A DNA stretch of 64,000 nucleotides. Origin: Squalus acanthias. Lineage: Eukaryota. The position numbers and the translations under genes were made by a program. Each line of letters starts with the position of its first letter. Within the stretch, counting starts at the first letter, position 1. Location: assembly GCA_030390025.1 (NCBI GenBank), contig CM059431.1:128714001-128778000 (forward strand). The letters run 5' to 3'. The notes under the pieces were generated by a model. It worked only from the letters and a program-made list of their open reading frames with translations, had not been told where the DNA came from and searched no databases. Below are positions 2,280 to 60,201 of the stretch, one piece after another.

Positions 2280-3346
2280 TTAAATATACTCAACGATTCA
2301 GCATCCACAGCCCTTTGGGGCAGAGAATTCCAAAGATTCACAACCCTCTGAGTGAAGAAATTCCTCCTCATCTCAGTCTTAAATGGCCGACCCCTTATCC
2401 TGAGTCTATGACCCCTAGTTCTAGACACTCCAGCCAGGGTAAACAATCTCTCAGCACCTACCCTGTCAATCCCCTTCAGAATCTTATATGTTTCAATGAG
2501 ATCACCTCTCATTCTTCTAAACTCCAGAGAGTATAGGCCATTCTACACAATCTCTCCTCATAGGACAGCCCTCTCATCCCAGGAATCAATCTAGTTAACC
2601 TTTGTTGCACCGCCTCTAAGGCAAGTATATCATTCGTCAGATAAGGAGACCAAAACTGTGTCCAGTTCTCCAGGTGTGATTTCACCAAAGCCCTGTGCAA
2701 TTGTAGAAAGAGCTTGTACTCCAACCCCCTCGCAATTAAGCCCAAGATGCCATTTGCCCTCCTAATTGAAATCACGATTTGCGTACTCTGCATACTTCTG
2801 GCGCACACTCTCAACACCGACACTAACGCCCTGACTAAAATGGCATCCAGCGCGGCCTGCTCCAGAAGTGTGCGTGCGCTGCTCAGATTCCAATTTTTCA
2901 GCCAAATCGGCACCCGTAGTGCCCAAACAACAGGCACTACAGAACCAAATTTATAGCCCAACGTCTTCATTACACCAGGATAATCCATGTCACATGGCAA
3001 CCACACAAAAATGGAAGTGGCGAGTGGAGGGTGTTCTGGCTCCTGTGAAGAAACAGTGGCCCCAGTTTTAATTTTGTGATGAGCTGGGAGCAGGGGCGGG
3101 GGGGAGGGGGGGGCGGCAGGTGTGGCGGTCCGATAGAGTGCAGAAAACCCAGAAGTAAGTGCAGTGCGTATGTCAGTGGCTTTTTAACTCATTATATTTT
3201 TACTTCTGACTTTTCTGTCTAATCAGTGGCAGCGGATGTGATGTGGACCCGCATGACCTCATCTCAACTCCAGTATTTAAAGTGACACTCCAAATATGCA
3301 ATTTGAACGAGTTTGGAGTTGGGAAGAAAAGAAAGCAAGTGGCATA

Positions 3347-4870
3347 ATGGTGTCCAGACAGGCAAAGGCTGTGCCTCGTTTCAGTGACGCCTCTCTGGAT
3401 GTGCTGCTGGGGCCTGTGAGGAGTCGGAGAGAGATACTCTTCCCTACCAACAGGAGGATGAAGCCTGCAGCGGAGGCCAAAAAGGCATGGTTTGATTTAG
3501 CGGAGGAGGTCAGCAGTAGGTAGGTGGAGCCACACTCCTGGATTCAGTGCAGGAAGCGCTTTGATGACCTAAGCAGGTCAGGAAAGGTGAGTACAGCTGC
3601 ACATTCACCTACATCCTGCTGTGCGCAACAGTCCACCCTCTCACTCTGCCCACTCCAGCACATCACTCCTCACACCCACTTTCTTTGCAGGTGCACCCAC
3701 CCTTTTCTTTATATGCACTTCCTCACATCCCCATCTACCCATCTACCCATCCACCACTCCCATTCACCCTCATCCTTATGCAATGTCATGCCTCTCCCTC
3801 ATAGTCACCCTCACCAAATGCACTCAATCCATCAGATGAACACATGCCATTGCACTCATGCATACGTCTCTTCTTTCCCTCCTTGCAGGAGAAGAGAGCA
3901 CAGAACACCAGGGAAAGGGACCGAACCGGAGGGGGCCCTTCAAGCATTTTTGCAGCTGACAAGCACAGAGGAGGAGGCACTGGAGATCAGTGGAGTTTCG
4001 GCGTCCCTGCCATTGGAGATGGGGAATCAGGGAGCTCCCAGCTACTTGGTGACACAATGAAATGGTGACTCACACTTCACAAGTGAGAAAGAGCAGCTGG
4101 TGGAGACAGGGACAGCAGTGGAGAGTCTGCTTCAGAAGGCGCGGCCTTCTCCAAACTCTGCTCAGCTGAACACAGAGCTGTACCTTGGGGCCATCGATGA
4201 AGAGGAGAATCATTGAGCAGCAGCAGACAATGTACGATGCACTGACAGGCAAAGTGGAATCACCATGATTGCAGAGAGTTTGGAGGAGTCCACCTCACGC
4301 ATGAGGGGCGTGATGTCACAGGCCACTGAGATGATGTCTTCTTACCTGAAAAGAGTGGCCAGCGCCATTGGCCATCAAACACTCCAATCAAATGAATCCA
4401 TGCATGCCTTCTACACCACTGTGCAGACTCTGGATGCCAACATGTATGCCACCTTAAATAGGTTGACAGATACTTGGCCTTACAGGGCCGCATATATCTG
4501 CACCAACGTGTTCACCAGCAGAGTGGTAGCAGTGAAGTGAGGCTGGGACACGAGAGGGATGATGGCAAAAGGGGTCATGAAAGTGGGGACTCCACTCAAA
4601 GCGCTTCCACTTCTCACCCACAGCCCACCTCTCAGTCAGTAGCCCACATGCTGCCTCGGCTCCCGATGGCCGAGTTTGCCCCTGCACTGGTGCAGGTGGA
4701 GCAGTCGTCTTTGGTGGGGCCCTTACGGGCTCCAAAAGCCAGAGGATGTTGGCCAAGAGCATCTCAGCAGTCAAGAGCAGGGATGTGAGCAGCCTGCCTC
4801 CACCTCTGCTGAAGCCACAGTGGTTACACCACATAGAAGTAGCAGAAAAAGGAAGAGTAGGGCTTTGTAG
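3347..4870 (+). pseudogene. Harbinger Myb/SANT-like DNA-binding protein pseudogene (spliced)
   Basis: MVSRQAKAVPRFSDASLDVLL..., in-frame stop at 3521-3523, WIQCRKRFDDLSRSGK then GTGAGT donor; acceptor TTGCAG then EKRAQNTRERDRTGGGP; basic C-terminus RSSRKRK. Confidence 0.85.
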
Positions 4871-5239
4871 TTGCACAAGGGCATGCACATGGGTGTATGA
4901 GAAAATGTTGTTTTGATAATTTTTTGTTCTTTATTTAGCTCACATAAATGTTATTCTTTTTCAGCACTTTCCCATCTTGTCCATTCTCGGGTGCTTGGTG
5001 GTAAGTGGCCTTCGAACTTGTTTACTGATGAATGTGAGAACATGAATTGATGGGGACCAATGGGGGATGTTGGTTGGTTGGTTGCAGGACTGCTTTGTGT
5101 CAGTGACATTGGGGAAGGGAGGGGGTGTCATTACATTTTCTGCTAACATGGGTGCACTGGTGCAACCCAAGTGAACCTTGCATTAATAAGGGCATCCCTG
5201 GCATCCCAGTCAGCCATGTGAGCAGCTGGGGGTGCATTA

Positions 5240-58478: not shown

Positions 58479-58516
<38 letters not shown>

Positions 58517-59003
58517 TCTACACCACCACCCCCCATTTTTGCATCCAGGTCCACCCACATCAAAAGCCAGGCAGGTCCTCTCTCACCAACAGTCTCTGAG
58601 ACTAGCCAGTCAGCAATGATGACATCATCAGAGGCGGCTTTCAGACTGAAACCACTAATTAGTTCATAGGTTCCCACATGCTGCAACTCAATTGCCCAAT
58701 TAAGTGAAAATTGCATCAGGCATCCACATTAATCTGGAGTCGGGGGGGAAACACGAAATGCAGATTACACGACCCCAACCCGACCCCAAGACAAAATCCA
58801 GCCCACCACGTCTACAATACTCAGGGGGTTTGTTTATCTCTGTTGACTATCACTACCCCCTGCAGTCACAACCATGTTTCCTGCCTTATCAGTGAAAGAC
58901 TGCTTGTTACTTTTACCAACTTTATTTCACTTTGTAAAACCTTTTTGCTTGGCAAAGCACTTCAAGAAATATTAAAATTAAGGGTCTGTATATACTTTCT
59001 ACA
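57384..59003 (-). mobile_element. Solo LTR (about 834 bp once the nested MITE is removed)
   Basis: TGT...ACA termini; 4-bp TSD ACTC at 57380-57383 and 59004-59007. On the minus strand TATAAAA (about 57733-57739) precedes AATAAA (about 57491-57496). Confidence 0.85.
58022..58804. mobile_element. Harbinger MITE, 783 bp, inside the solo LTR
   Basis: Perfect 13-bp TIR GGGCTGGATTTTG; ACC TSD at 58019-58021 and 58805-58807. Confidence 0.95.
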
Positions 59004-60201
59004 ACTCCTCTAGGCTTTCTGCAGTATTTAGCTCTCGGTATCTGACATAAGCTTTCCTTTTTTGCCTTATCTTACCCTGTATGCCCCTTGACATCCAGGG
59101 GCTCTAGATTTGGGAGCCCCATCCGATTTCTTTGTGGAACATATTTACTCTGAACCCTCACTATCTCCTCCTTGAATGCCTCCCACTGCTCTGACACTGA
59201 TTTACCTTCAAGTAGCTGTTTCCAGTTTTCTTTTGCTAAATCACATCTCAGCTTAGTAAAATTGGCCTTTCCCCAATTAAAAACTTTTACTCCTGGTCCA
59301 TCTTTGTTTTTTTCCTTAACTACGCTAAGTCTAACTGAATTATGATCACTATCACCAAAATGGTCTCCCACTGATACCCCTTCCACCTGCCCAGCTTCAT
59401 TCCCTAAAACTAAGTCCAGAACTGCCCCCTCTCTTGTTGGACTTGCTAAGTACTGGCTAAAAATGTCCTCCTGAATGAATTTTATGAATTCTGTGCCCTC
59501 TATGCCTTTTACACTGACTTTATCCCAGTTAATATTAGGCTAATTGAAATCCCCTACTATTACTGTCCGTTTTTTTGTACTTCTCAGAAATTTACCAACA
59601 TATTTGCTCTTCTATCTCTCTCTGACTATTTGGGGGTCTATTAGTACACTCCCAGCAGTATAATTGCCCCCTTTTTTGTTCTTCAGTTCAACCCCTAGGG
59701 CCTCATTTGATGATCCTTCTAACATATCATCCCTGCTCACAGCTGTAATTGTTTCTCTAACCTATATTGCGACCCCCCTCATTTTTTTATTGCAGTCAAT
59801 GGAACTGAATATCAGCCGCTTCAGTTAATGGGTGGCTGATCCGATGCCGCCCGTTTTATGCCACCGGCTGATACAAATTCTTTGCCCTAAATCATTAAGG
59901 AACACATAGGCCGGAATTTTCTATACCTGGGCAATCGGGTGTGGGCGGTCTCCGTGGCGGGTCACAACACTCTTCCTAATTCCATGCCGCTCCTCAGATC
60001 GACTTTGCATTAATGGGGCCTATTAAGCCCACCCTGCGTGTTTCCCGGCCCTATTAAATGGTGCGGGTCTGGTGACGTCATCGATGACACGTTTTCAGCC
60101 GGGATATTTAAAGGAGCCGAGGACACATTGCATTTGAAGGTTCATCTAGGAGTGTGCAGGCAGCACACTGGACAAATCGACTGCTGCAAAAAGTGCCAAA
60201 C

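What the first reader, a model, noticed from the sequence alone, without database searches (positions are those of the whole stretch)
3051..59912. Shared palindromic target preference A-N-N-Y-[TSD]-R-N-N-T across divergent Harbinger families
Reconstructed empty sites: AAAC-AGT-GTGT (3058), ACAC-AAA-GAAT (12028), AGAT-ATT-ACAT (26529), GAGT-AYT-GTGT (31272), ACAC-TMG-GTTT (37761), GAAA-GTT-AGCT (42219), ATAC-RGT-ATGT (52740), ATGC-ATT-ATCT (54711), ATCC-ATG-TAGT (55875), AGTC-ACC-ACGT (58022) and ACAC-ATA-unknown (59909). T at +4 in 10/10, A at -4 in 9/11, pyrimidine at -1 in 10/11, purine at +1 in 9/10, while the TSD itself varies. This echoes the flanks of the zebrafish Harbinger3_DR target as I recall it (ACAC-CWG-GTCT) but without a fixed CWG or TWA core. 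Inference: these transposases read the flanks rather than the duplicated triplet. The 648 element was excluded because its TSD is unclear.
Basis: partly seen in the sequence, partly recalled or inferred. Interest (0 to 1): 0.8.

Follow-up and report, generated by a model that had tools for sequence, protein, structure and literature searches.

The report
Shared flanking target motif of Harbingers
Several families of Harbinger-type jumping genes in this large eukaryotic genome insert into the same palindromic flanking motif, a variant of a target preference already known from zebrafish and plants.

Summary
Six are backed by paralogous empty sites that carry the triplet once.

I then took copies of nine element families from elsewhere in the same 3.7-Gb genome. 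Eight families have both flanks sampled:
- A at -4 in 115/160 (background 0.28)
- pyrimidine at -1 in 147/160
- purine at +1 in 154/170
- T at +4 in 109/170 (background 0.27)
- the whole A-N-N-Y/NNN/R-N-N-T pattern in 60/157 copies, against 1.9% of background positions; it nearly vanishes when the boundaries are shifted.

There are two classes.
- **Class I** (lineages C, D, B, H, F) has an almost uninformative triplet and informative flanks, half-site A-R-A-S-W-Y. These are the flanks of the published zebrafish Harbinger3_DR target AAACAC-CWG-GTCTTT.
It clearly reads the triplet too (A-W-T, the "Pangu"-type ANT duplication).

Extended palindromic targets are an established PIF/Harbinger trait, so this is a new variant of a known kind.

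One by-product is unexplained: the two copies of the duplicated triplet differ at the middle base far more often than at the outer bases.

The parts
648..1576 (+). Left part of an F-family Harbinger-like element. The left TIR GGGCTAAAAATTC starts at 648. Homology to other copies ends near 1572-1576. No 3-bp duplication can be defined.
   Evidence: genomic copies start at query positions 47-53, which corresponds to window 648, and end at 973-977. Myb-like match at 977-1171; left flanks of 19 other copies.
3058..6922 (+). H-family element flanked by AGT/AGT; empty site AAAC-AGT-GTGT.
   Evidence: ends; copies end at query positions 1 and 3865; junctions of other copies; Myb-like 3377-3682 on +, transposase-like 5282-6126 on -.
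12028..16424 (+). D-family autonomous-looking element flanked by AAA/AAA. Myb-like ORF at 12367-13041 (+); open 410-aa DDE_Tnp_4 frame at 14751-15983 (-).
   Evidence: PF13873 E=1e-8; PF13359 E=6e-37; paralogous empty site at window 28449 with a single AAA.
26529..27268 (+). A-family MITE (class II) flanked by ATT/ATT, inserted in a LINE.
   Evidence: (the paralogous LINE copy at window 10800-10802 has a single ATT).
31272..35530 (+). B-family element flanked by ATT/ACT.
   Evidence: paralog in L027 has a single ATT; transposase-like 33953-34833 on -, Myb-like 31564-31830 on +.
37761..39486 (+). C-long non-autonomous element flanked by TCG/TAG.
   Evidence: (internal similarity to the 42219 and 59909 elements).
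42219..48623 (-). Long relative of the C-long family, in reverse orientation, flanked by GTT/GTT. The end at 42219 is degraded by a G-run.
   Evidence: the reverse complement of the 48623 end matches the C-long 5' consensus; paralog in L022 lacks the element and has one triplet, with a 1-bp indel; Myb-like 48125-48283 on -.
52740..53444 (+). G-family MITE (class II) flanked by GGT/AGT. Its first base is mutated (AGCC where the family has GGCC).
54711..55475 (+). E-family MITE (class II, youngest family at 97-98% identity) flanked by ATT/ATT.
   Evidence: (paralog in L007 has a single ATC triplet).
55875..56646 (+). D-family MITE flanked by ATG/ATG.
   Evidence: (paralog in L007 has a single ATG).
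58022..58804 (+). C-family MITE flanked by ACC/ACC.
59909..64000 (+). B-type element; left end only, with flank ACAC-ATA. It runs to the end of the window.
   Evidence: TIR GGCCGGAATTTT equals the family B consensus seen; Myb ORF 60112-60636; transposase-like 63441-63998 on -.

Best explanation
These are PIF/Harbinger (PHIS) cut-and-paste transposons and their MITEs. Integration is directed to a two-fold symmetric target of about 15 bp.

Shown:
- Class I families have the half-site 5'-A(-6) R(-5) A(-4) S(-3) W(-2) Y(-1) next to a 3-bp duplicated triplet that is nearly free.
- One MITE lineage (class II) keeps Y(-1)/R(+1) and A(-2)/T(+2) and adds A at triplet position 1 and T at position 3 (A-W-T).

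Inferred:
- A symmetric transposase assembly (DDE_Tnp_4 enzyme, recruited by the Myb-like protein) holds the target so that each protomer reads one flank half-site.
- It cuts each strand just 3' of the pyrimidine at -1, with a 3-nt stagger.
- The strongest contacts, A(-4) and T(+4), are 10 bp apart, so they lie on one face of the helix.
- How much the central triplet is read is a labile, family-specific addition: none in class I here, CWG in zebrafish, TWA in plants, ANT in class II here.
- The flank half-site is the conserved part, inherited from a common Harbinger ancestor.
For: Harbinger identity:
- PF13359 DDE_Tnp_4 (E=6e-37) and PF13873 Myb-like ORFs.
- Further transposase and Myb remnants in four other elements.
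- TIRs and 3-bp duplications.
- Triplets identical on both sides in 18/21, 18/22 and 8/11 pairs of families C58022, D55875 and B31272.

Target motif:
- For example, C58022 has A@-4 21/21, Y@-1 20/21, R@+1 20/21, T@+4 19/21.
- Pooled half-sites: class I, n=172, -6 A 100, -5 G 81/A 62, -4 A 136, -3 C 73/G 45, -2 A 103/T 42, -1 C 103/T 47. Class II, n=178, -4 A 101/T 50, -2 A 119, -1 Y 166, t1 A 146, t3 T 153.
- With window copies excluded, every one of the nine families is enriched for A at -4 (p from 1e-3 to 3e-19).
- Register control and background motif rate.
- Empty sites.
- The youngest family (E, 97-98% identity) already shows Y@-1 31/31 and R@+1 29/31. This fits a preference at integration.

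Literature (passages read):
- Harbinger3_DR integrates into AAACACCWGGTCTTT (PMC3016246).
- PIF/Harbinger has an extended target of 9 bp in plants and 15 bp in vertebrates (PMC2836001).
Against: - Only the roughly 20-40 copies most similar to the window copy were sampled per family, not all copies. Two near-duplicate loci (L083/L095) were kept.
- Existing copies are survivors, not de novo insertions, so biased retention is not formally excluded.
- The pattern is weaker in some families. T@+4 is 12/29 in A26529, 14/31 in E54711 and 6/11 in C37761. Y@-1 is only marginal in H3058 (14/20, p=0.058) and F648 (14/19, p=0.03).
- The families are not all independent.
- Nothing here shows which protein reads the target, where the strands are cut, or the oligomeric state. 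Those steps are inference from general knowledge of DDE transposases.
Confidence: 0.85

Rival explanations
1. The pattern is compositional or contextual. On this view the elements simply sit in AT-rich DNA or inside one recurrent host repeat, so the flanks look alike without any sequence-specific target choice.
For: Flanks are somewhat A/T-rich at distal positions. Several window copies lie inside other repeats such as LINEs.
Against: - Background was taken from 150,508 bases of flanking genome around the same kind of loci: A 0.281, T 0.274, full motif 1.88%.
- The signal is register-specific: 60/157 at the called boundaries against 0-14/157 at shifted registers.
- Positions -12 to -8 are flat.
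- The flanks of different copies are unrelated sequences. After removing identical flanks, only 1 of 30 copies was lost in each of two families.
Confidence: 0.03
2. The motif reflects survival rather than integration. Insertions would occur broadly, but copies in other sequence contexts are preferentially lost, for example by excision or deletion, leaving the palindromic sites.
For: Only fixed genomic copies were examined. For mPing, the sequence of the flanking triplet affects excision (PMC4561436, passages).
Against: - The youngest family (97-98% identity) shows the strongest Y/R signal.
- In mPing the preferred triplets favour excision. That would deplete preferred sites, not enrich them.
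- Harbinger3_DR is reported to integrate into the same flank sequence (PMC3016246).
Confidence: 0.07
3. The conserved flank bases belong to the element. On this view the TIRs are longer than called and the duplication is mis-placed.
For: In class II the automatic alignment boundary included the A-W-T triplet, because it is so conserved.
Against: - Six paralogous empty sites contain the flank bases and one triplet without the element.
- The triplets are direct, not inverted, repeats, and include non-consensus pairs such as CAT/CAT, GAT/GAT, ACG/ACG and ATG/ATG.
- Flank positions are preferences (57-95%), not fixed bases.
Confidence: 0.02

Closest known systems
Harbinger3_DR of zebrafish (NuwaI group in the PHIS scheme of Han et al. 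2015)
   Same: Two-gene Harbinger with a 3-bp duplication and a 15-bp palindromic target. Its published consensus AAACAC-CWG-GTCTTT (PMC3016246) gives half-sites AAACAC and AAAGAC, that is A-A-A-S-A-C. This fits the class I half-site A-R-A-S-W-Y found here.
   Different: The central triplet is CWG in zebrafish. Here CWG occurs in 2 of 104 class I and 0 of 89 class II triplets. Class I triplets carry 0.2-0.7 bit. Relatedness of the transposases to Harbinger3_DR was not tested.
Plant PIF/mPIF and Ping/Pong/mPing (canonical PIF/Harbinger, TWA duplication)
   Same: DDE transposase plus Myb-like ORF, 3-bp duplication, and an extended palindromic target beyond the triplet (9 bp in plants; PMC2836001).
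   Different: The triplet is TWA and is strongly required (PMC4561436). Here TWA is found in 8/104 class I and 1/89 class II triplets. The plant flank consensus, recalled by me as CWC-TTA-GWG for maize PIF and not seen in any call, differs from A-R-A-S-W-Y.
Pangu group of PHIS (5'-ANT-3' duplication; PMC4482050)
   Same: Class II MITEs (A26529, E54711, G52740) have ANT triplets in 64/89 copies and TIRs that start with GG.
   Different: Pangu was described from invertebrates, fungi and algae, as a separate clade next to IS5 whose second ORF has no known motif. No autonomous partner of the class II MITEs was found here. Their TIRs resemble those of the Myb-encoding B and H families. A flank preference for Pangu is not mentioned in the passages I read.
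ISL2EU (A|AT|T), NuwaII (C|TNA|G) and Spy (AAA|TTT, no duplication)
   Same: Related PHIS groups for which conserved bases just outside the duplication have been described (PMC4482050).
   Different: Their duplication length or composition differs. Only one flanking base per side is described for them, against about six per side here.

Membership tests
PIF/Harbinger (PHIS) superfamily | DDE transposase of the DDE_Tnp_4 / Plant_tran type | tested here: met
   PF13359 E=6.2e-37 (profile 1-158 of 158) and PF04827 E=5.8e-11 on window 14751-15983 (-); related remnants at 33953-34833, 63441-63998 and 5282-6126.
PIF/Harbinger (PHIS) superfamily | [quoted passage not shown] | tested here: met
   PF13873 on 12367-13041 (E=1e-8) and 60112-60636 (E=5e-8); further Myb-like matches in five elements.
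PIF/Harbinger (PHIS) superfamily | TIRs and a 3-bp target site duplication | tested here: met
   TIRs; identical triplets in 96 of 157 pairs, one mismatch in 38; six empty sites with a single triplet.
PIF/Harbinger (PHIS) superfamily | Extended palindromic target preference beyond the duplication | tested here: met
Canonical PIF/Harbinger group (as defined by Han et al. 2015) | TWA duplication | tested here: not met
   TWA in 8/104 class I and 1/89 class II triplets.
NuwaI group (includes zebrafish CWG Harbingers) | CWG duplication | tested here: not met
   CWG in 2/104 class I and 0/89 class II triplets.
NuwaI group (includes zebrafish CWG Harbingers) | Transposase falls in the Nuwa clade | not tested
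Pangu group | ANT duplication | tested here: met
   Met for class II only: 64/89. Class I: 19/104.
Pangu group | Transposase clade next to IS5; second ORF without known motif | not tested
   No autonomous partner of the class II MITEs was identified. One search shows no internal similarity to the autonomous elements in the window.

The most novel reading that the evidence does not exclude
Target recognition in Harbinger transposases may be modular. On this reading, a flank half-site (A-R-A-S-W-Y, 10-bp spaced A/T contacts) has been conserved from zebrafish Harbinger3_DR to at least five lineages in this genome. Reading of the duplicated triplet is then a labile add-on: free, A-W-T, CWG or TWA.

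If so, the composition of the duplication, which is used to define PHIS groups such as Pangu, Nuwa and PIF, does not track lineage. An 'ANT' family could arise inside ordinary Myb-encoding Harbingers.

A second, bolder reading concerns the excess of middle-base disagreement between the two triplet copies. It could record a step of the reaction itself, such as heteroduplex triplets formed from donor-derived overhangs, rather than later mutation.
Probability: 0.35. Interest if true: 0.5.

Novelty: new variant of a known kind. Interest (0 to 1): 0.35.

Why it matters
Extended palindromic targets are already an accepted PIF/Harbinger trait, so the finding does not change the picture of how these elements work. 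It adds three things.
- The vertebrate-type flank half-site is shared by several diverged families within one genome.
- That half-site can operate with an essentially free central triplet.
- A family with a Pangu-type A-N-T duplication shares the same inner flank rule.

This is useful for transposon annotation, because flank logos can confirm boundaries when the duplicated triplets are uninformative. It bears on the classification of PHIS groups by their duplications. It could also guide the choice of transposases with defined integration specificity as genetic tools.

Tried and rejected
- **Whole genome file.** I used genome searches and small fetched stretches instead.
- **First end-extrapolation by short BLAST.** It failed for 9 of 20 D-family copies and mis-set the right end by 1-2 bases because of an indel. 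It was replaced by MAFFT alignments of whole copies.
- **Wrong right-end partners.** The first mismatch search gave 9109 as the partner of 3058 and 43725 as the partner of 37761. I rejected these in favour of 6922 and 39486, which are supported by family alignments ending there and by matching triplets.
- **Family F (648).** No right end or duplication could be defined. Homology to other copies stops near 1576, so only left half-sites were used. One of the 20 fetched copies (L220) had no recognisable TIR and was dropped.
- **Alternative duplication models for class II.** I considered no duplication, and 1-bp or 2-bp duplications, to explain ATT/AAT pairs. These were rejected because the empty sites for 26529 and 54711 hold one triplet, and because non-consensus triplets are duplicated directly.
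- **Autonomous partner of the class II MITEs.** None was found among the window's elements.
- **Earlier notes of this scan.** None exist.
- **Primary Harbinger3_DR paper (PMC2290759).** It is not held, so the consensus is cited from a review passage.
- **Literature searches.** Searches for sharks, 'extended target' and LatiHarb1 gave nothing on a free-triplet Harbinger target. I read only listings and selected passages, so this is not proof that none is in print.
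Full report
**What the window is.** The window is G000:C7:128714001-128778000 of a 3.71-Gb eukaryotic assembly. It is a mosaic of LINE fragments (RVT_1 and endonuclease ORFs) and many elements whose ends read GG[GC]N..AWWTT.
- One element (12028-16424) carries a Myb/SANT-like ORF (PF13873) and an open 410-aa frame with a complete DDE_Tnp_4 domain (PF13359, E=6e-37).
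- A local tblastn with these two proteins finds further transposase remnants at 33-55% identity in the elements at 3058, 31272 and 59909.
- The same search finds Myb-like remnants in the elements at 648, 3058, 31272, 42219 and 59909.
- These are therefore PIF/Harbinger elements and their MITEs, and the families are diverged at the protein level.

**Check of the eleven sites.** I printed the context of every coordinate and searched for the inverted partner of each end.
The tallies re-count exactly: T at +4 in 10/10, A at -4 in 9/11, Y at -1 in 10/11, R at +1 in 9/10.
- With T at 0.274 in local background, ten of ten is about 2e-6 by simple arithmetic.
- The first automatic partner search suggested wrong right ends for two elements (9109 and 43725).
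- The doubtful-looking left end at 42219 (a G-run) is also right. A paralogous copy of the host sequence in locus L022 lacks the 6.4-kb element and has one triplet where the window has GTT...GTT.
- The same kind of paralogous empty site was found for 12028, 26529, 31272, 54711 and 55875, each with the triplet once.
- For 31272 the paralog shows that the original triplet was ATT and that the right copy (ACT) has changed.

**Test outside the window.** I searched the genome with nine elements. Only the roughly 40 best candidates of thousands are scored per search.
- I fetched 19-31 copies per family, either whole or as 60-70-base junctions.
- Boundaries were set from MAFFT alignments of the copies or from the TIR motif at junctions.
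- Copies with identical flanks were counted once (1 of 30 removed in each of families A and G). One F copy without a recognisable TIR was dropped.

Pooled over the eight families with both flanks sampled:

| Position | Count | Background |
|---|---|---|
| A at -4 | 115/160 | 0.281 |
| Y at -1 | 147/160 | 0.501 |
| R at +1 | 154/170 | 0.499 |
| T at +4 | 109/170 | 0.274 |
| Whole pattern | 60/157 copies | 2,814 of 149,338 positions (1.9%) |

- Leaving out the window's own copies changes little: 106/150, 137/150, 146/161, 100/161 and 53/148, with p from 4e-20 to 3e-52.
- Moving the assumed boundaries outward by 1-5 bases gives 1, 14, 0, 1 and 0 of 157. The signal is therefore tied to the called register.
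- Each of the nine families taken alone, without window copies, is enriched for A at -4 in half-site counts (p from 1e-3 to 3e-19).
- Y at -1 is significant in seven families and marginal in H (14/20, p=0.058) and F (14/19, p=0.03).

**Two classes.**

Class I is families C58022, C37761, D55875, B31272 and H3058, plus F648 where only left half-sites are available.
- The triplet carries 0.2-0.7 bit, while positions -6..-1 and +1..+6 together carry 2.8-7.2 bits (F648 was not part of that calculation).
- The pooled half-site (n=172) is -6 A 100, -5 G 81/A 62, -4 A 136, -3 C 73/G 45, -2 A 103/T 42, -1 C 103/T 47. That reads A-R-A-S-W-Y.
- The triplets are diverse: TWA 8, CWG 2 and ANT 19 of 104.
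- They are nevertheless faithfully duplicated: 18/21, 18/22 and 8/11 identical pairs in C58022, D55875 and B31272.

Class II is families A26529, E54711 and G52740.
- The triplet is A-N-T in 64/89 copies and A-W-T in 58/89, carrying 1.6-2.5 bits.
- Y(-1)/R(+1) is near-invariant (166/178 half-sites) and A(-2) is strong (119/178).
- Position -4 is only A 101/T 50 of 178. T at +4 drops to 12/29 and 14/31 in A and E.
- These three 'families' are one MITE lineage, 70-74% identical over most of their length. They have no internal similarity to the autonomous elements in the window.

Class II contributed three of the eleven sites.

**How it most likely works.**

Shown: a two-fold symmetric preference centred on the 3-bp duplication, and real 3-bp duplications.

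Inferred from general DDE-transposase mechanism and from published Harbinger work:
- A symmetric transposase assembly recruited by the Myb-like protein engages the target.
- Each protomer reads one flank half-site.
- Each strand is cut 3' of the pyrimidine at -1. The purine at +1 is that pyrimidine's counterpart on the other strand. The cuts are staggered by 3 nt.
- A(-4) and T(+4) are ten base pairs apart, one helical turn, so the two strongest contacts face the same side of the DNA.
- In class II, the Y-A and T-R steps at the two cut sites are pyrimidine-purine steps. These are easily deformed, which would fit a bent target.
- Which protein makes the contacts is unknown.

**Comparison with what is known.**
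- Another passage states that PIF/Harbinger elements have an extended target preference of 9 bp in plants and 15 bp in vertebrates (PMC2836001).
- The zebrafish half-sites AAACAC and AAAGAC fit the class I half-site position by position, including the C/G ambiguity at -3.
- Han et al. 2015 (PMC4482050, passages) divide the superfamily by duplication type: TWA (PIF/Harbinger), A|AT|T (ISL2EU), none (Spy), ANT (Pangu), CWG (NuwaI) and C|TNA|G (NuwaII).
- Class II has the Pangu-type duplication, but I do not file it as Pangu. The clade and the motif-less second ORF were not tested, Pangu was not reported from vertebrate-like genomes in the passages I read, and the class II TIRs resemble those of the Myb-encoding B and H families.
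- Class I fits none of the duplication-defined groups.
- I found no paper describing a Harbinger family with conserved flanks and a free triplet (searches; listings and selected passages only). This is not proof that none exists. Repbase entries and the primary Harbinger3_DR papers were not available to me.

**Rivals.**
- Composition or a shared host repeat is excluded by the local background, the flat distal positions and the register control.
- Flank bases being part of the element is excluded by the empty sites.
- Survival bias cannot be formally excluded with fixed copies. It is unlikely, because the youngest family shows the cleanest Y/R signal and because the same flanks are reported for Harbinger3_DR integration.

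**By-product.** The two copies of the duplicated triplet disagree unusually often, and mainly at the middle base.
- Among 38 pairs with exactly one difference, it lies at position 1, 2 or 3 in 3, 28 and 7 cases.
- In class II the middle base differs in 15/29, 8/31 and 13/29 pairs, mostly ATT against AAT. The adjacent TIR bases are almost invariant, and the families are only about 2-14% diverged.
- One idea is gene conversion between MITE copies running a few bases into the shared target half-sites.
- Another is donor-derived triplet overhangs, following the staggered-cleavage model for mPing (PMC4561436). That paper's own result argues against carry-over, at least in yeast: 45 of 46 new insertions of a TCA-flanked donor lay in TTA/TAA.
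- I could not resolve this.

**Verdict.** The phenomenon is a variant of the known extended palindromic target of PIF/Harbinger transposons.

Noticed in passing
window 31269-31271 vs 35531-35533, 37758-37760 vs 39487-39489, 52737-52739 vs 53445-53447; loci L002-L200: The two copies of the 3-bp duplication differ mainly at the middle base. In 38 pairs with a single mismatch, the difference lies at position 1, 2 or 3 in 3, 28 and 7 cases. In the A-W-T families the middle base is discordant in 26-52% of pairs, mostly ATT against AAT. This is far above what family divergence predicts, and I have no explanation for it.
   Followed up: partly
window 26529-27268, 52740-53444, 54711-55475: The three A-W-T MITE 'families' are one lineage, 70-74% identical over most of their length, with A and E in opposite orientation. 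They share no internal sequence with any autonomous element in the window. Their autonomous partner is unknown.
   Followed up: partly
window 37761-39486, 42219-48623, 59909-64000: The 1.7-kb C-long element is a deletion derivative related to the 6.4-kb element at 42219-48623 (80-83% over about 1.4 kb, reverse orientation). It also shares about 400 bp at 82% with the Myb region of the 59909 element, although the TIR starts differ (GGGCTGG against GGCCGG). This explains the long inverted repeats 38572-39131 / 42579-43145 seen.
   Followed up: partly
window 53445-57000 and locus L007 2894-3670: The host sequence around the E and D MITEs (54511-54710, 55675-55874, 56647-56846) is itself a repeat. 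A paralog in L007 lacks both MITEs. Two different Harbinger MITEs therefore landed within 1.2 kb of each other in one copy of another repeat.
   Followed up: no
window 472-647: A further Harbinger-like end (GGGTTAGAAATTC, left flank AGCT-ATT) lies 176 bp before the 648 element. This may be a nested or truncated insertion.
   Followed up: no
window 31272-35530 (about 32262-32356): Other genomic copies of family B align to query positions 1-990 and 1085-4259, with the two genomic segments abutting. The window copy therefore carries about 95 extra bases there. In the same way, other H-family copies have about 300 extra bases at query position 1006.
   Followed up: no
window 16579-19256: Long imperfect inverted repeats (arms of up to 291 nt at 71-84% complementarity) surround an RVT_1 ORF at 18621-20357. 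I did not examine this.
   Followed up: no
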